Part shown: positions 1,571 to 20,432 of the stretch, piece by piece | Numbering within the stretch: position 1 is the first letter of the stretch | Layout: each line of letters starts with the position of its first letter | Source: a phage | Length of the DNA: 51,253 nucleotides | Direction: 5' to 3' (one strand) | Sequence record: NC_105436.1 | Translations under genes and position numbers: made by a program | Notes under the pieces: generated by a model | Databases searched by the model: none | What the model saw: the letters and a program-made list of their open reading frames with translations, nothing else | What the model was told of the DNA's origin: nothing

Positions 1571-2686
1571 ATGAAAAATGTAAAAATTACAGATGAGCAA
1601 TTCAAGATCGAACGGGCGGCAGGTAAGACATATAAACAGATCGCTCAAGAGTACGGAATGAATGTGAGAAGCGTCGAGCGTCGCGCGGCGCGCCTTGCAA
1701 AACAAGGACAGCTATCAACCATCGGAGCGCCTGGTTTTGGTGTTCATGGTGAGTCAGTAATGACTGACAAAGAAGGAAATATAATCCTCAAGTGGACCAA
1801 AACCAGCAAGGATAAAGAGCAATTAGAGGCATTGATGCGCGCAGCAATGGAGGCGTTTAGCGAGGAAGTGCCGCGATTAGATCCAGTTCCATTGCAGGAG
1901 CGTAATTATAATGAAACGCTTTCATTGTATCCGATCTTTGACATGCACTTAGGCGCTATGGCCCATAAGCACGAATGCGGCGAAAATTGGGATACTGCGA
2001 CGGCAGAGCGCGTTATGAATAACTTTATCGACTATGCTTTGATGTGCGCGCCGGACAGCGAAAAGGCTGTTATCCTGATTGGTGGAGATATGCTGCATAG
2101 CGACGGCCTGGAGGCGGTGACACCTGCAAGCGGTCACGTACTTGATCAAGATAGCCGATATGCAAAATTGGTTTACGTTGCAATACGTGCAATGCGCCGC
2201 GCAATTAATAAAATGCTGTTAAAGCATAAACATGTTGAGGTCCAGATCGTAGAGGGGAATCACGACCAATCAGGAATGATTTGGCTACGCGCAGCAATGG
2301 CGGCAGCATATGAGAACGATCCGCGCGTTTACGTTGATGTTTCTCCTCGCGTTGTTCACCACACGCAATACGGAAAAACTTTCCTTGCGTACCATCACGG
2401 GCACACAGTGCGTAAACCTGAGACTTTGCTAATGATGTGCGCGTCAGATTGGCGGGAGGACTTCGGAAACTCAAAAACGATGTATGCGCACGTAGGGCAC
2501 TGGCATCACCAGACTGTGACGGAAACGTCGCTTGGCATCGTGGAGGTGCATAGCACCCTGGCGGCAAAAGACGCATACGCCGCGCGCGGTGGCTGGAGAT
2601 CTCGACGCCGTGCAGCGGTTATCATTTACGACAAAGAGCATGGAGAAGTTGGGCGATTTGTTCACTATCCAGAAATGATGAATTGA
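1571..2686 (+). CDS. HTH domain fused to calcineurin-like metallophosphoesterase
   Basis: Start taken at ATG 1571 (MKNVKITDEQ); N-terminal helix-turn-helix-like segment (KTYKQIAQEYGMNVRSVERRAARLAKQ); phosphoesterase motifs D-x-H (FDMHLG), GDxxD (GGDMLHSDG), GNHD (EGNHDQ), and His clusters HHGH and GHWHH. Confidence 0.65.
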   Translation: MKNVKITDEQFKIERAAGKTYKQIAQEYGMNVRSVERRAARLAKQGQLSTIGAPGFGVHGESVMTDKEGNIILKWTKTSKDKEQLEALMRAAMEAFSEEVPRLDPVPLQERNYNETLSLYPIFDMHLGAMAHKHECGENWDTATAERVMNNFIDYALMCAPDSEKAVILIGGDMLHSDGLEAVTPASGHVLDQDSRYAKLVYVAIRAMRRAINKMLLKHKHVEVQIVEGNHDQSGMIWLRAAMAAAYENDPRVYVDVSPRVVHHTQYGKTFLAYHHGHTVRKPETLLMMCASDWREDFGNSKTMYAHVGHWHHQTVTETSLGIVEVHSTLAAKDAYAARGGWRSRRRAAVIIYDKEHGEVGRFVHYPEMMN

Positions 2687-11651: not shown

Positions 11652-11680
11652 TTGACACGCACCAAATAGCTTTTATAATG
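11652..11680 (+). promoter_or_regulatory. consensus sigma70-type promoter (TTGACA-17-TATAAT)
   Basis: TTGACA at 11652-11657, 17-bp spacer, TATAAT at 11675-11680; 30 nt upstream of the first rightward gene. Confidence 0.7.
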
Positions 11681-12993: not shown

Positions 12994-13887
12994 ATGTTAA
13001 AACTTGCTGACATTAAATTCCCGATCACCTTCGAATCTCGCGGCATTGGTCATTACACTTTTACCGATGAAAAAACATGCCATAAGGTTGATATGAATAG
13101 CGACAAATTAAGCCCATCAACAATGGAGATTGAACACTTTATTGATGCGCACAATACGCATTACAACGCACTTAAAGACTACGGCTACGCAATGCCAGGC
13201 TACACATGCTTGCACTACAAGCCATATAAGGGCCAGGTGTTACCAGTGCGCTCACCGGAACGCGCAGAGATTCCGATGGTCCATATGAAAACCTGCGACT
13301 ACAAAAAACTGTGGTGCTTAAGTCTGGACAATATCAAGTATCCGATCACGTTCCACACGACTGGTAAGTCAACGATTCGCTACACATCGCGCGACAATGG
13401 CGTTTATAGCGATGGTACGAAATCAGAGTTGAAAGTCGATTTCTTTGTCAATGGTCACAACAAATTCAATCCGCACAACGAAGAGGATAAAGTGTATTAC
13501 GTGGAAGACATTACAAAACACTTGTTTGGAGAAACTCCATTCGGCGGCGGGAAGACGGCAATTCAGAAAATCATTGGCGAGGAGATCCATAAAGCGGCTG
13601 TCGAAATGAAAGCGCCTGGAGGCTGGCGTATTGACAAGAGCGCCTTTGCCTATCAAGAAATCGTAACGCAGGGCGCGATTGAAGATATGCCAGTTACAGC
13701 CACGCTAAAAGGAGTCCGGCTTGATGACGGCAGTTGGTATGAATTAACGGCTACACCAAAGACGATCGAAATTCATGATGATGTTGTTATCCTTCTGCTT
13801 CACTACGGCGGCACTAAAAACCGGACTGTTGCAGGTGAGATCAGCATCAAGCGCGGAACGATGGTTAAGTGGAAGGTGAAGATTTGA
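12994..13887 (+). CDS. hypothetical protein with internal tandem duplication
   Basis: 297 aa; two related segments (DIKFPITFES...HFIDAHNTHYN and NIKYPITFHT...FFVNGHNKFNPHN). Confidence 0.55.
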   Translation: MLKLADIKFPITFESRGIGHYTFTDEKTCHKVDMNSDKLSPSTMEIEHFIDAHNTHYNALKDYGYAMPGYTCLHYKPYKGQVLPVRSPERAEIPMVHMKTCDYKKLWCLSLDNIKYPITFHTTGKSTIRYTSRDNGVYSDGTKSELKVDFFVNGHNKFNPHNEEDKVYYVEDITKHLFGETPFGGGKTAIQKIIGEEIHKAAVEMKAPGGWRIDKSAFAYQEIVTQGAIEDMPVTATLKGVRLDDGSWYELTATPKTIEIHDDVVILLLHYGGTKNRTVAGEISIKRGTMVKWKVKI

Positions 13888-14635: not shown

Positions 14636-15346
14636 ATGAAAAAATACACTTTCGAACTGTGGGGCAAGAAGTACGAATTAATCACCAGCAAGCCGATTGT
14701 TATCGTTGACCTGGACGGAACACTATCGGACGGTTCGCATCGTTTGCATTTGCTGCCAACTGAAAACTTGCACCTTACGGAATCGTGGCGCGAGTTTAAC
14801 AGGGCCGCCGCCGGAGATTCACCGATTAAAAGCACGATCGCGGTTATTAACGGTTTATGGGTGTCGGGATTTGCCATCGTCATCTTGACCGGACGCAGCG
14901 ACGAGGTTCGCTATGAAACCTGCAAATGGTTGAATGAGAACGGCGTGAAGTTTGACGAAATCATCATGCGCCGCCAGGAGGACAACCGAAAGGATACTGT
15001 TATTAAAGAAGAAGCCTTGCGCGCTATTGGCCTGGACAACATTGTTTGCGCCTTTGACGATTCGCCGAACGTGGTTAAGCACTTCCGCAGCTTGGGGATC
15101 ACAACCTATCAGGTCACGGAATACGACAAGCCACACGCTCACATACAATCTCACGGCGTGGAATCAATAAAGATCACGAAGCGCGCCCGATTCGTCGGCA
15201 GCAAAGACAGCCTGGTCAATGCCAGCTTTATCAAAGGCAAGGTTTATGATGTTCATAGCCATGATAAAAACCGATTCTTTTTGTGGGATGAAAAAGGTTT
15301 TGGCTGGTGCTTTGAACACGACGACGGCGATTTTGTTAATGCGTAA
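14636..15346 (+). CDS. HAD-superfamily phosphatase (nucleotidase or polynucleotide 3'-phosphatase-like)
   Basis: DxDGT motif (VIVDLDGTLSDG) near the N-terminus; start taken at ATG 14636. Confidence 0.6.
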   Translation: MKKYTFELWGKKYELITSKPIVIVDLDGTLSDGSHRLHLLPTENLHLTESWREFNRAAAGDSPIKSTIAVINGLWVSGFAIVILTGRSDEVRYETCKWLNENGVKFDEIIMRRQEDNRKDTVIKEEALRAIGLDNIVCAFDDSPNVVKHFRSLGITTYQVTEYDKPHAHIQSHGVESIKITKRARFVGSKDSLVNASFIKGKVYDVHSHDKNRFFLWDEKGFGWCFEHDDGDFVNA

Positions 15347-15388
15347 TAGCACTTTTTGTTAAAACATCTTAACGGGCTTGCGGTATAG
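15345..15388 (+). promoter_or_regulatory. box cassette
   Basis: Box + hairpin GGGCTT/AAGCCC with TATAGT in the loop + leader CCCATCGACAACGAAAGAGGA. Confidence 0.55.
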
Positions 15389-15420
15389 TAAGCCCATCGA
15401 CAACGAAAGAGGAAACAACG

Positions 15421-15720
15421 ATGTTAGTACGCAATGCGATGTATAAAATCAAATCTGATGAGCGTGTCCACCTGTTTCATGTGAACGAGCACGGCGACCT
15501 TTCGATCGCGATGTACCGTAACGACCGAGGCGGTTGCGAGGAATCAACAGGCGGTAAAGTGCATCCAATGTTTTTCATGTTCCGCCACAAGGCCGATCAA
15601 TACAGCCATCACAACCACTGGATCGGTGACTTGCTGCAATATGGGAAATTGGTTGCGTCGCACGTTGTAGATCCTGGCAAGTTAACCAGCCGCCAGCTTC
15701 GCAAAATGGCGCGCAAATAG
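15421..15720 (+). CDS. hypothetical protein
   Basis: 99-aa ORF after box cassette and conserved leader. Confidence 0.5.
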   Translation: MLVRNAMYKIKSDERVHLFHVNEHGDLSIAMYRNDRGGCEESTGGKVHPMFFMFRHKADQYSHHNHWIGDLLQYGKLVASHVVDPGKLTSRQLRKMARK

Positions 15721-15759
15721 CACTTTTGTTAAAATCAACTTTACGGCCTGCGGTATAGT
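15716..15759 (+). promoter_or_regulatory. box cassette (near-duplicate of 15345-15388)
   Basis: Box (one T shorter) + TATAGT + leader CCCATCAACAACAAACGAGGA. Confidence 0.55.
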
Positions 15760-15790
15760 AAGCCCATCAACAACAAACGAGGATTAAATC

Positions 15791-16054
15791 ATGGCTAACA
15801 AGATCGAATTTTTTAAAGCGGTAGACATTATCGACGGCGCGCCTAGCTTCTTCGCTATCCATTCTATTGACGGCAAGGATATTGGGTACAACGTTATCCG
15901 TCGAGATGGAATATCAAAACTTAGTGACCTGGTAGGCCATATTGTGTCAATCGGGAAATGCGCATGGCCCGATTCGCCACGAGAGCCACGCCGCCGCGAC
16001 ATGGTAGAGCCTGTTCTGCTTTACACTCTGGTAGTAGAAGGAGAAAATAAATGA
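15791..16054 (+). CDS. hypothetical protein
   Basis: 87-aa ORF after near-duplicate box cassette and leader. Confidence 0.5.
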   Translation: MANKIEFFKAVDIIDGAPSFFAIHSIDGKDIGYNVIRRDGISKLSDLVGHIVSIGKCAWPDSPREPRRRDMVEPVLLYTLVVEGENK

Positions 16055-16236
16055 TTTGGTTACTTGCTTTTTTGGTTGTTTTTCTTTACATTTCAGGCTT
16101 GTTTACGTTCCGCGCGTTGGTGAAATATTCTGACACGACAGACAAAGACGATAAAATCGTTCTCGCTTTCTGGTTTGTTTGGGTGTGGTTAGCAATTTAC
16201 GAGATCATCAGAGACAAACAGAAATTTGAGTGGTGA
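16051..16236 (+). CDS. hypothetical membrane protein
   Basis: 61 aa with two hydrophobic helices. Confidence 0.45.
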   Translation: MIWLLAFLVVFLYISGLFTFRALVKYSDTTDKDDKIVLAFWFVWVWLAIYEIIRDKQKFEW

Positions 16237-16293
16237 TTCTTGCTATGGCGCATTCATGCAGTGCGCCATGTTGAGAAAACCTAAAGGGGGGAA

Positions 16294-16446
16294 ATGATGC
16301 GTAACTTTGAAAAAATCATTACCAAAAAGAAGCGTCGCGGGTACGATGAGCATGTGGAGCTTGTGAAAAAGCAACGCAAGAAGCGCAACGAAGACAAGAA
16401 GCGCGGGAAAAAATTTAATGCGATTTTTCGCTATGGAGATCATTAA
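16294..16446 (+). CDS. hypothetical small basic protein
   Basis: 50-codon K/R-rich ORF with RBS AAAGGGGGG. Confidence 0.3.
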   Translation: MMRNFEKIITKKKRRGYDEHVELVKKQRKKRNEDKKRGKKFNAIFRYGDH

Positions 16447-16448
16447 TC

Positions 16449-17039
16449 ATGAAACGAGACATTATTATCCTTAATGGGCCGCCTGGCTGTGGAAAGGACA
16501 CTATTGCAGCTTACCTAACGGGCCATCGTTACCCAGCGGTTAAGGCGTCATTCAAGCAGCCGATGTTCGATATTGCGTTTTCCATGCTGGGCGTGTACAG
16601 ATACGATGAATTTATGGACCTGTACAACGACCGAGAACAAAAAGAAAAGCCTCAAGTTATTTTGGGCGGCAAGTCACCGCGACAATTCATGATCTGGATT
16701 AGTGAGGAGGTCATGAAGCCAGTTTTTGGTGATCACTATTTCGGGCGTCGAATGGTTGAAGAAATTCACGAGATGTACCGAGATTTGGCAGTTGTGATCA
16801 GTGATGGCGGATTCCCCGAAGAAATCAAGCCGCTCGTTAAGGCGGGGCATGAGGTGCATATTTGCCGATTGCATCGCGACGGCTTCACGTTTGCTGGCGA
16901 TTCGCGAAACTATATTGACCTGAGCGGTTATCACTATCGAATCCATCACTATGATTTCCACTTGCAGGATGGCAAGCCTGAACTGGCTGTAAACGAGATC
17001 GTCAATGCTGTCAAATGGAAGCACACAAAGATTAAATAG
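16449..17039 (+). CDS. P-loop nucleotide/nucleoside kinase-like protein
   Basis: Walker A at the N-terminus (ILNGPPGCGKDT); size and motif placement resemble phage dNMP kinases or polynucleotide kinase domains. Confidence 0.55.
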   Translation: MKRDIIILNGPPGCGKDTIAAYLTGHRYPAVKASFKQPMFDIAFSMLGVYRYDEFMDLYNDREQKEKPQVILGGKSPRQFMIWISEEVMKPVFGDHYFGRRMVEEIHEMYRDLAVVISDGGFPEEIKPLVKAGHEVHICRLHRDGFTFAGDSRNYIDLSGYHYRIHHYDFHLQDGKPELAVNEIVNAVKWKHTKIK

Positions 17040-20404: not shown

Positions 20405-20410
20405 AAATCA

Positions 20411-20432
20411 CCCGCCGCACGGCGGGTTTTTT
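20411..20432 (+). terminator. rho-independent terminator candidate
   Basis: CCCGCCGCACGGCGGG hairpin + T6, between early block and terminase. Confidence 0.65.

What the first reader, a model, noticed from the sequence alone, without database searches (positions are those of the whole stretch)
14636..17039. HAD phosphatase and P-loop kinase encoded three genes apart: nucleotide salvage or a split polynucleotide kinase-phosphatase
The DxDGT phosphatase (14636-15346) and the Walker-A kinase (16449-17039) could be a 5'-nucleotidase plus dNMP kinase pair (known in other virulent phages for redirecting host nucleotides). They could instead be the two halves of a Pnkp-type end-healing enzyme that counters tRNA or DNA nicking defences. 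No ligase was recognised nearby, which weakens the repair interpretation.
Basis: inference. Interest (0 to 1): 0.45.

Follow-up and report, generated by a model that had tools for sequence, protein, structure and literature searches.

The report
Phage phosphatase plus dNMP kinase pair
Two early genes of a T1-like coliphage encode a phosphatase resembling the phosphatase half of T4 polynucleotide kinase and a deoxynucleotide kinase whose close relatives have been tested in the laboratory; both are already annotated in related phages, and the only new point is that the two genes travel together, and are sometimes fused, across several phage groups.

Summary
Both ORFs are real. The window is an almost complete T1-like phage genome (Drexlerviridae, Warwickvirus, about 96% identical to tonnikala and FritzSarasin), where these genes are already annotated as "polynucleotide kinase" and "dNMP kinase / P-loop NTPase".

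**Kinase (16449-17039).** It is a T4 gp1-type dNMP kinase, not a polynucleotide kinase.
- It and T4 gp1 match the same PHROG (phrog_139).
- Profile-profile comparison with the gp1 family gives 97.5% probability over 179 columns.
- Similarity to the T4 Pnk kinase is limited to the P-loop.
- An 84%-identical orthologue (phage KarlJaspers) triggers the Kongming defence. A 46%-identical one (Rao1 R1DNK) phosphorylates dAMP, dGMP, dCMP and dTMP in vitro.

**Phosphatase (14636-15346).** It is a stand-alone Pnkp-type HAD phosphatase with every catalytic motif intact, fused here to a 55-aa accessory module.

**The pair.** In 80 related loci the HAD gene lay upstream of the kinase on the same strand in 67, and two natural HAD-kinase fusion proteins exist.

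**Best reading.** This is a nucleotide-salvage module for host-DNA recycling. The HAD substrate is probably 3'-phosphates but is untested. A Dmp-like 5'-dNMPase role is disfavoured by published Rao1 data. The finding is ordinary, with one modest new observation.

The parts
14636..15346 (+). Stand-alone Pnkp-type HAD phosphatase gene (236 aa). The HAD core is about aa 1-176 and a C-terminal accessory module is fused to it.
14708..14722 (+). HAD motif I, DLDGT (D25 nucleophile, D27 acid/base). The other catalytic residues are T85/R87 (T4 S211/R213), K124 (K258) and D141/D142 (D277/D278).
   Evidence: These columns are invariant in alignments A3 and A5. Residue correspondence comes from the phmmer alignment to 1LTQ. 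Residue roles are from PMC3592404.
15164..15343 (+). C-terminal module of about 55-60 aa, beta-rich, joined to the HAD core by a low-confidence linker.
   Evidence: AF2 pLDDT is about 90 for aa 183-235 and below 50 for aa 161-177. It is homologous to a free-standing 63-aa ORF placed just after the HAD gene in MikeNSara and in L007. The fused 236-237 aa form recurs in many contigs.
15421..16446 (+). Four small intervening ORFs (15421-15720, 15791-16054, 16051-16236, 16294-16446) of unknown function. Their equivalents are absent where HAD and kinase are adjacent.
   Evidence: PHROGs of unknown function only. One search shows a gap of 0-132 nt in 32 loci.
16449..17039 (+). gp1-type deoxynucleoside monophosphate kinase (DNK), 196 aa.
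16476..16502 (+). P-loop GPPGCGKDT, with Asp at the position that is usually Ser/Thr, as in T4 gp1.
   Evidence: Read directly from the sequence. It aligns to GKKRSGKDT of the gp1 family.
1571..2686 (+). Metallophosphoesterase annotated as 'DNA repair exonuclease', with an N-terminal HTH. It is not adjacent here, but its orthologue directly precedes HAD and DNK in phage Rao1 (gp56-gp57-gp58). Possible nuclease partner; this is inferred.
   Evidence: Motifs DMH, GGDxxH, GNHD. It is 57% identical to Rao1 gp56. The KanT1 paper notes the same order.
11652..11679 (+). Consensus sigma-70 promoter-like site at the head of the rightward block of small early genes that holds both genes.
   Evidence: TTGACA-16-TATAAT, 12 of 12 matches. 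This is a consensus match only.
20410..20427 (+). Strong terminator-like hairpin at the end of the same block. No comparable site lies between the two genes.
   Evidence: 7 pairs, 6 of them G-C, followed by a T run. This is a consensus match only.

Best explanation
The two genes are the components of a conserved phage module. The module pairs a Pnkp-type HAD phosphomonoesterase with a broad-specificity dNMP kinase (DNK). It serves nucleotide supply in a phage that has no polymerase, ribonucleotide reductase or thymidylate synthase of its own and rebuilds its DNA from the degraded host chromosome.

Shown for close homologues: the kinase converts 5'-dNMPs to dNDPs, and host NDK then makes dNTPs.

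Inferred from family membership and intact catalytic residues: the HAD enzyme hydrolyses a phosphomonoester through an Asp25-phosphate intermediate. The most likely substrate is a 3'-phosphate, either on DNA ends or on 3'-phosphorylated deoxynucleotides (dNp or pdNp). These products would otherwise be dead ends for exonucleases, polymerases and the kinase.

Inferred from synteny and fusions: the two enzymes act in one pathway. In this genus four small early genes have been inserted between them, and a small accessory module has been fused to the phosphatase.
For: Kinase:
- It and T4 gp1 both match phrog_139.
- hhalign against the gp1 family gives 97.5% over 179 columns. The alignment pairs GKDT, R62 with gp1 R68 ('DRE'), R78, D119, E125 and R140.
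- R1DNK of the T1-like phage Rao1 (46% identical) phosphorylates dAMP, dGMP, dCMP and dTMP, and its K15A mutant is inactive.
- The KarlJaspers DNK (84% identical) and a Webervirus DNK trigger Kongming.

Linkage:
- HAD lies upstream on the same strand in 67 of 80 kinase loci.
- In 32 of those the gap is 132 nt or less.
- The pair occurs in Drexlerviridae, Guernseyvirinae (K1ind1), an Aeromonas Autographiviridae phage and Yersinia phage 526-2.
- Two natural HAD-linker-kinase fusion proteins share a linker motif. One of them was seen on three contigs.

Biology: T1 and TLS degrade host DNA and reuse the nucleotides (PMC11447400). In rV5-like phages the kinase sits beside thymidylate synthase and ribonucleotide reductase.
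Against: - The HAD substrate has not been measured for any member of this stand-alone subfamily.
- No 3'-phosphate-producing nuclease is known in T1-like phages.
- Deleting dnk in Rao1 had no measurable fitness cost in the laboratory, so the module is not essential there.
- In this window the genes are 1.1 kb apart with four ORFs between them.
- In more distant lineages (Kuravirus, rV5-like, GJ1, Saclayvirus) the kinase occurs without the HAD gene.
- Many of the 80 loci are related to each other, so the synteny count overstates the number of independent events.
Confidence: 0.55

Rival explanations
1. T5-like pair. The HAD enzyme is a 5'-deoxynucleotidase like T5 Dmp. It would drain or rebalance dNMP pools, or protect against DNK-triggered immunity such as Kongming, while the kinase makes dNDPs.
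For: - T5 Dmp is itself a DxDGT phosphatase.
- It shares the Arg 11 residues after the first Asp, and the T-x-R, KDxxxK and DD motifs, with the window HAD (sequence).
- Dmp homologues co-occur with DNKs and block Kongming by depleting dAMP.
- There is a weak hhalign signal between the HAD family and Dmp, E 6e-4.
Against: - Rao1 carries the orthologous HAD (gp57, 57% identical) directly upstream of its DNK. Yet it is the Kongming-sensitive model phage, dAMP rises 2-3 fold during its infection, and it is rescued by T5 Dmp supplied in trans.
- The HAD family is far closer to the Pnkp phosphatase (97.7%, 30-32% identity) than to Dmp (28% probability; phmmer E 42).
- A 5'-dNMPase fused to, or co-transcribed with, a dNMP kinase would run a futile cycle. 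T5 avoids this by expressing the two at different times.
- T1-like phages reuse host nucleotides rather than discarding them.
Confidence: 0.15
2. Split Pnkp. The kinase phosphorylates 5'-OH polynucleotide ends and the HAD removes 3'-phosphates. Together they would heal nicked DNA or cleaved tRNA for sealing by host LigA or by a phage ligase.
For: - The HAD is a genuine Pnkp-type phosphatase.
- Natural fusions have the order phosphatase then kinase.
- In 15 of 80 loci an ATP-dependent DNA ligase directly follows the kinase.
- In 9 of those 15 a metallophosphoesterase takes the place of the HAD gene. This echoes the two known Pnkp designs, T4-type and Clostridium-type.
Against: - The kinase family matches the T4 Pnk kinase only over the 25-residue P-loop.
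- The Ser16 position is Asp, and there is no Asp35-x-x-Arg38 acceptor motif (sequence; PMC2831316).
- R1DNK is a dNMP kinase in vitro.
- Neither the window nor its annotated relatives contain a ligase.
- Genes in these small phage genomes are tightly packed, and T7 also places a nucleotide kinase near its ligase without any functional link (own knowledge).
Confidence: 0.1
3. The two are unrelated early genes that are neighbours only by shared ancestry of the early region, with no common pathway.
For: - Four ORFs separate them in the window.
- The kinase occurs without the HAD gene in distant lineages.
- The HAD family also occurs without this kinase, for example in T4-like PseT and in actinophages.
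- Many sampled loci are close relatives of one another.
Against: - The order and strand are the same in 67 of 67 loci, across at least four phage groups with different morphologies.
- The genes abut or overlap in 22-32 loci.
- Two fusion proteins exist, and they share a conserved linker.
Confidence: 0.15

Closest known systems
Phage dNMP kinases of the T4 gp1 family: T4 gp1 (PDB 1DEK), Rao1 R1DNK, KarlJaspers DNK
   Same: Same PHROG, full-length profile match, same fold, and the same G-K-D-T P-loop and 'DRE' arginine. It is 84% identical to the KarlJaspers DNK, which triggers Kongming, and 46% identical to the biochemically characterised R1DNK.
   Different: It is 45 residues shorter than gp1, with a smaller helical NMP-binding insert. 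gp1's D-x-R at the Walker-B-like strand is D-G-G here. T4 gp1 excludes dAMP and dCMP (own knowledge), whereas R1DNK takes all four dNMPs.
Phosphatase domain of T4 polynucleotide kinase-phosphatase (PseT; PDB 1LTQ, 5UJ0) and of bacterial Pnkp1 (4XRP)
   Same: DxDxT acylphosphatase fold at 30-32% identity. The nucleophile, the acid/base residue, the Ser/Thr, the Lys and the Asp-Asp residues are all conserved.
   Different: There is no attached kinase domain. It matches a separate PHROG (phrog_415 rather than phrog_505). It has a family-specific conserved insert in the flap (H-R-L-x-L-L-P ... E-x-W-x-x-F-N) that AF2 models poorly. T4 R279 is Ser here. It has an N-terminal beta-hairpin, and in this phage a C-terminal accessory module.
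T5 Dmp (5'-dNMP phosphatase) plus T5 Dnk
   Same: A phage-encoded DxDGT phosphatase together with a dNMP kinase in one genome. Co-occurrence of the two was noted in the Kongming study.
   Different: Similarity between the HAD and Dmp is marginal. In T5 the two genes are far apart and expressed at different times, and T5 discards host nucleotides. Here the genes are in one early block and the phage family recycles host DNA. The Rao1 data argue that the HAD is not a functional Dmp.
Clostridium thermocellum-type Pnkp (kinase, metallophosphoesterase and ligase-like domains)
   Same: The related-phage cassettes metallophosphoesterase-kinase-DNA ligase and HAD-kinase-DNA ligase contain the same three kinds of activity.
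   Different: They are separate genes, the kinase belongs to a different family (gp1-type), and the ligase is an ordinary ATP-dependent DNA ligase. None of this cassette's ligase component is present in the window.

Membership tests
T4 gp1-type dNMP kinase (phrog_139, DNK) | Full-length profile similarity to gp1 homologues | tested here: met
   The window kinase hits phrog_139 at 3e-51 (profile positions 81-261) and T4 gp1 hits it at 1.8e-65 (positions 83-261). hhalign family against family gives 97.5%, E 2.9e-11 over 179 columns.
T4 gp1-type dNMP kinase (phrog_139, DNK) | Fold: P-loop core plus a helical NMP-binding insert, as in 1DEK | tested here: met
T4 gp1-type dNMP kinase (phrog_139, DNK) | P-loop G-x4-G-K-D-T, with Asp at the usual Ser/Thr position, and a conserved D-R-E arginine | tested here: met
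   GPPGCGKDT and NDR62E are invariant across 31 homologues and align to gp1 GKDT and DR68E.
T4 gp1-type dNMP kinase (phrog_139, DNK) | Catalyses dNMP + ATP -> dNDP | not testable with these tools
   Shown in vitro for Rao1 R1DNK (46% identical). Inferred in vivo for the KarlJaspers DNK (84% identical) as a Kongming trigger.
T4-type polynucleotide 5'-kinase (Pnk domain of Pnkp) | P-loop GxxGxGKS with essential Ser16, and the Asp35-x-x-Arg38 acceptor motif after strand 2 | tested here: not met
   The window has GKD, and the region after strand 2 reads SFK36QPMFD with no D-x-x-R. The essential residues are listed in PMC2831316. Sequence.
T4-type polynucleotide 5'-kinase (Pnk domain of Pnkp) | Profile or fold similarity beyond the P-loop | tested here: not met
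Pnkp-type HAD phosphatase (Pfam PF25109) | Profile match above the curated threshold | tested here: met
   75.4 bits against a gathering score of 27.6. hhalign against the PseT phosphatase domain gives 97.7%, E 2.4e-12.
Pnkp-type HAD phosphatase (Pfam PF25109) | Catalytic set: DxDxT, motif II Ser/Thr, motif III Lys, motif IV Asp-Asp | tested here: met
   D25, D27, T29, T85, K124, D141 and D142 are invariant or nearly so. They correspond to T4 D165, D167, S211, K258, D277 and D278.
Pnkp-type HAD phosphatase (Pfam PF25109) | Fold closest to the T4 Pnkp phosphatase domain | tested here: met
Bifunctional polynucleotide kinase-phosphatase (Pnkp), as the GenBank annotations imply | Kinase and phosphatase domains in one polypeptide | tested here: not met
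   The 236-aa protein has no P-loop. phrog_505 is matched only over its C-terminal positions 159-292. The public label 'polynucleotide kinase' is therefore a misnomer.
Pnkp-type HAD phosphatase (Pfam PF25109) | 3'-phosphatase activity on polynucleotide ends or 3'-nucleotides | not testable with these tools
   No member of the stand-alone subfamily has been assayed in the literature I could search.
T5 Dmp-type 5'-deoxynucleotidase | Sequence membership | tested here: inconclusive
T5 Dmp-type 5'-deoxynucleotidase | Depletes dAMP and thereby blocks Kongming | not testable with these tools
   Indirect published evidence is against it. Rao1 carries the orthologous HAD yet accumulates dAMP, is Kongming-sensitive, and is rescued by T5 Dmp in trans.

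The most novel reading that the evidence does not exclude
The HAD-DNK pair, which in some phages is one fused polypeptide, is a dedicated two-step enzyme system. It would act as a mononucleotide-level counterpart of Pnkp. It would take 3'-phosphorylated breakdown products of the host chromosome (dNp, pdNp or 3'-P ends), perhaps made by the metallophosphoesterase encoded next to the pair in Rao1-like phages. It would remove the 3'-phosphate and pass the 5'-dNMP directly to the kinase. This would define a previously undescribed host-DNA-to-dNTP salvage route in phages that lack their own nucleotide biosynthesis. The conserved flap insert and the variable C-terminal modules (beta-module or zinc ribbon) would set substrate choice or partner binding.
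Probability: 0.2. Interest if true: 0.55.

Novelty: already known. Interest (0 to 1): 0.3.

Why it matters
The practical value is mostly corrective.

- The widespread GenBank label "3'-phosphatase, 5'-polynucleotide kinase" for this T1-like gene is wrong by half, because the protein has no kinase domain.
- The nearby "ATP-binding protein / P-loop NTPase" is a dNMP kinase of the kind that triggers the Kongming defence. T1-like phages carrying it are therefore predicted targets of that system.
- The conserved HAD-then-kinase order and the natural fusions give a concrete, cheap hypothesis for the unknown substrate of the stand-alone Pnkp-type phosphatases. They also bear on how T1-like phages turn the host chromosome into precursors, a step the TLS authors say is still unassigned.

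Tried and rejected
- **More gp1 homologues.** The search for related loci with T4 gp1 returned only three near-identical loci. I fetched ten diverse gp1 genes one at a time instead.
- **Do the metallophosphoesterases form one family?** I compared the podophage metallophosphoesterase, the T1-like "DNA repair exonuclease" and T5 A1. There was no significant profile similarity. An earlier comparison used a mis-framed translation of the window gene and should be ignored.
- **My recollection that T5 Dmp is an HD-domain enzyme.** The database sequence shows a DxDGT phosphatase, so I dropped it.
- **Thymidine-hypermodification kinases and base-substitution pathways (dTMPase plus dUMP or hmdUMP kinase).** Rejected because the genome has no polymerase, hydroxymethylase or other modification genes.
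- **The retron Eco2 paper from the literature search.** It mentions PNK only as a laboratory reagent.
- **Kongming paper figures S3 and S17.** These show which phages carry "Dmp homologues" and their sensitivity, but they are images and could not be read.
Full report
**What is there.**

The window is essentially a whole T1-like phage genome. A 3.5-kb stretch around the finding is 95-97% identical to Escherichia phages Sip, tonnikala and FritzSarasin, and to other members of Drexlerviridae, Tempevirinae, Warwickvirus. Both ORFs exist at the stated coordinates:
- 14636-15346 (+), 236 aa, with DLDGT at residues 25-29.
- 16449-17039 (+), 196 aa, with GPPGCGKDT at residues 10-18.

They are separated by four small ORFs, not three: 15421-15720, 15791-16054, 16051-16236 and 16294-16446. 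All four match PHROGs of unknown function.

Both genes lie in a rightward block of small early genes. A perfect sigma-70 consensus site (11652-11679) heads the block and a strong terminator-like hairpin (20410-20427) ends it, with no comparable terminator between the two genes. These are consensus matches only.

Public records already annotate the first gene as [quoted passage not shown]. They annotate the second as "dNMP kinase / ATP-binding protein / P-loop NTPase".

**The kinase.**

Pfam, NCBIfam and sequence searches of the PDB see only a P-loop. Stronger methods place it in the T4 gp1 family.

1. The protein matches phrog_139, "deoxynucleoside monophosphate kinase", at 3e-51. T4 gp1, checked against GenBank X03016, matches the same profile span at 1.8e-65.
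2. I built a profile of 239 family members and compared it with an alignment of T4 gp1 plus ten diverse gp1 homologues.
   - The result was 97.5% probability, E 2.9e-11, over 179 columns.
   - The alignment pairs the G-K-D-T P-loop and the D-R-E arginine (R62 with gp1 R68).
   - It also pairs R78, D119, E125 and R140.
3. The same profile against a PseT taken from the database aligns only the first 26 residues, which is the P-loop.
5. The residues essential for T4 polynucleotide kinase are Ser16 in GKS and the Asp35-x-x-Arg38 acceptor motif (PMC2831316). They have no counterpart here.

The literature then settles the activity. The Kongming study (bioRxiv 10.1101/2024.12.20.629578) found that phage dNMP kinases trigger that defence system.
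- Its model enzyme is R1DNK of phage Rao1. R1DNK phosphorylates dAMP, dGMP, dCMP and dTMP in vitro, and its K15A mutant is dead.
- The DNKs of Escherichia phage KarlJaspers and Klebsiella phage vB_KpnS-VAC2 also trigger Kongming.
- The sequences in that paper's supplement are of this family. The window kinase is 84% identical to the KarlJaspers DNK and 46% identical to R1DNK.

The kinase half of the "split Pnkp" idea is therefore refuted as the main activity.

**The phosphatase.**

- Residues 1 to about 176 match Pfam PF25109 (HAD_PNKP) at 75 bits against a threshold of 27.6.
- They match phrog_415 at 1.4e-66.
- They match only the C-terminal phosphatase half of the bifunctional phrog_505.
- By sequence the nearest solved structures are Pnkp1 (4XRP) and T4 Pnkp (1LTQ, 5UJ0).
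- hhalign against the PseT phosphatase domain gives 97.7%, E 2.4e-12.

The catalytic residues described for T4 Pnkp are all conserved: D25, D27, T85, K124, D141 and D142. They correspond to the T4 Asp165 nucleophile, Asp167 acid/base, Ser211, Lys258 and Asp277/278 (PMC3592404). The Arg 11 residues after the first Asp (R36, T4 R176) and R87 (T4 R213) are conserved too.

The protein has no kinase domain, so the common annotation "polynucleotide kinase" is a misnomer. The subfamily has a conserved flap insert of its own (HRLxLLP ... ExWxxFN) that AlphaFold models poorly.

**The C-terminal module.**

In this phage the HAD core is fused through a low-confidence linker to a confidently modelled beta-rich module of about 55 aa.

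- In FritzSarasin and MikeNSara the HAD gene stops after the core and a different small gene follows.
- MikeNSara's small gene (phrog_11551) is a homologue of the window's tail.
- Other homologues carry a Cys-rich, zinc-ribbon-like tail instead.
- The fused 236-237 aa form recurs on many contigs, so it is not a sequencing error.

**The two genes belong together.**

I fetched 80 viral loci encoding kinase homologues at 43-98% identity. I scanned them with my own HMMs for the HAD, the kinase, an ATP-dependent DNA ligase and a metallophosphoesterase.

- The HAD gene was present in 67 loci, always upstream and on the same strand.
  - In 22 of these the gap was 9 nt or less, and in 32 it was 132 nt or less.
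  - In the other 35 the gap was 0.7-2.2 kb, as in the window.
- Nine loci had a metallophosphoesterase in place of the HAD, followed by the kinase and then a DNA ligase.
- Six loci had HAD, kinase, then ligase.
- Four loci had the kinase alone.

The adjacent pair occurs in several groups:
- Drexlerviridae, in Webervirus and in Rao1.
- Guernseyvirinae, in K1ind1.
- An Aeromonas Autographiviridae phage.
- Yersinia phage 526-2.

A search of 1.8 billion representative proteins found 4358 family members, and two of these are HAD-linker-kinase fusions:
- P0255 is 403 aa and was seen on three contigs, including a 60-kb phage-like contig.
- P0265 is 461 aa.
- The two share a conserved linker motif.

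In more distant lineages the kinase occurs without the HAD gene. In rV5-like phages it sits beside thymidylate synthase and ribonucleotide reductase, and in GJ1 it lies between a small DNA ligase and dUTPase. This fits an ancestral role in nucleotide metabolism.

**What the phosphatase probably does.**

T5 Dmp, the classical phage 5'-dNMPase, turns out to carry the same motif set: DLDGT, an Arg at +11, T-x-R, KDxxxK and DD. A mononucleotide substrate therefore cannot be excluded on family grounds. Three points argue against a Dmp-like role.

2. Published data on Rao1 point the other way.
   - Rao1 is a T1-like phage whose gp56 (metallophosphoesterase), gp57 (HAD) and gp58 (DNK) are contiguous. 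They are 57%, 57% and 46% identical to the window proteins.
   - Rao1 is the Kongming-sensitive model phage.
   - dAMP rises 2-3 fold during its infection.
   - It is rescued by T5 Dmp supplied in trans.
3. A 5'-dNMPase fused to a dNMP kinase would run a futile cycle.

T1 and TLS are known to degrade the host chromosome and reuse its nucleotides, and the genes responsible are still unassigned (PMC11447400). The window genome has no polymerase, ribonucleotide reductase, thymidylate synthase or ligase.

The best-supported reading is therefore a salvage module.
- The kinase pushes host-derived dNMPs to dNDPs. This is shown for homologues.
- The HAD removes 3'-phosphates from ends or from 3'-phosphorylated nucleotides. 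This is inferred.
- The neighbouring metallophosphoesterase may be the nuclease. This is an analogy with T5 A1 only, with no detectable homology.

**Verdict.**

Both proteins are members of known families and are nearly identical to annotated genes in many sequenced phages. A close orthologue of the kinase has been tested experimentally.

The only new points are:
- the strength of the HAD-then-kinase linkage, including natural fusions and the metallophosphoesterase replacement;
- the mis-annotation of the phosphatase;
- the argument from Rao1 that the phosphatase is not a Dmp equivalent.

Interest is low to moderate.

Noticed in passing
window 15164-15343 (C-terminal part of the HAD ORF); L002:4151-4342; L007:5373-5561: A beta-rich module of about 55-60 aa (pLDDT about 90) is fused to the HAD core in this phage. 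In relatives it is a free-standing 63-aa gene (phrog_11551, unknown function) placed directly after the HAD gene. Other HAD homologues carry a Cys-rich, zinc-ribbon-like tail instead. The module appears tied to the phosphatase by position, and its role is unknown.
   Followed up: partly
window 15347-15420: The intergenic stretch after the HAD gene contains the hairpin GGGCTT-GCGGTATAGT-AAGCCC. It is almost identical in the window, FritzSarasin and MikeNSara, while the segment just upstream of it (the HAD tail or small-gene cassette) differs completely. This looks like a recombination boundary or a conserved regulatory element.
   Followed up: no
window 1571-2686 (+): A 371-aa protein annotated in relatives as 'DNA repair exonuclease'. 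It has an N-terminal HTH and metallophosphoesterase motifs (DMH, GGDxxH, GNHD, HHGH). Its 57%-identical orthologue in phage Rao1 (gp56) sits immediately upstream of the HAD and DNK genes. It may be the unassigned host-DNA-degrading nuclease of T1-like phages, by analogy with T5 A1. No profile similarity to A1 or to the podophage enzyme was detectable.
   Followed up: partly
L043, L045-L048, L050, L082, L083, L085 (about 8.9-11.5 kb in the 20-kb loci); L051, L057, L074, L077, L079, L080: Related phage contigs of 41-46 kb carry tight three-gene cassettes. Nine have metallophosphoesterase, DNK, then ATP-dependent DNA ligase. Six have HAD, DNK, then DNA ligase. The set of activities mirrors the Clostridium-type and T4-type Pnkp-plus-ligase repair systems, although the kinase is of the dNMP-kinase family.
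   Followed up: partly
P0255 (L087:8001-9212, L088:3908-5119) and P0265 (L086:498-1883): These are natural single-polypeptide fusions of the Pnkp-type HAD (N-terminal) and the gp1-type kinase (C-terminal). The two halves are joined by a 60-110 aa linker with a shared F-x-G-P-E-L-H-G motif. P0255 lies on a 60.7-kb phage-like contig that also encodes RdgC, NinH, a Dam-like methylase, a PAPS-reductase-like protein and a Prim-Pol.
   Followed up: partly
window 12994-13887 (+): This 297-aa ORF (phrog_7116, unknown function) appears to be internally duplicated. The motif IK[FY]PITF..G..YT occurs near residue 7 and again near residue 113, and the PHROG matched in two stretches.
   Followed up: no
L103:124-858 (-) (T5 dmp): T5 Dmp, a biochemically established 5'-dNMPase, gets no Pfam hit at E < 0.01. 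Yet it shows the DLDGT, HR, T-A-R, KDxxxK and DD motifs of the Pnkp-type HAD clade. It seems to be an unmodelled, divergent branch of that clade.
   Followed up: partly
window 11652-11679 and 20410-20427 (+): A 12-of-12 sigma-70 consensus site and a strong terminator-like hairpin bracket an 8.7-kb rightward block of about 25 small early ORFs of unknown function. The HAD and kinase genes are the only ORFs in the part I checked (11.7-18.4 kb) that could be assigned a function.
   Followed up: no
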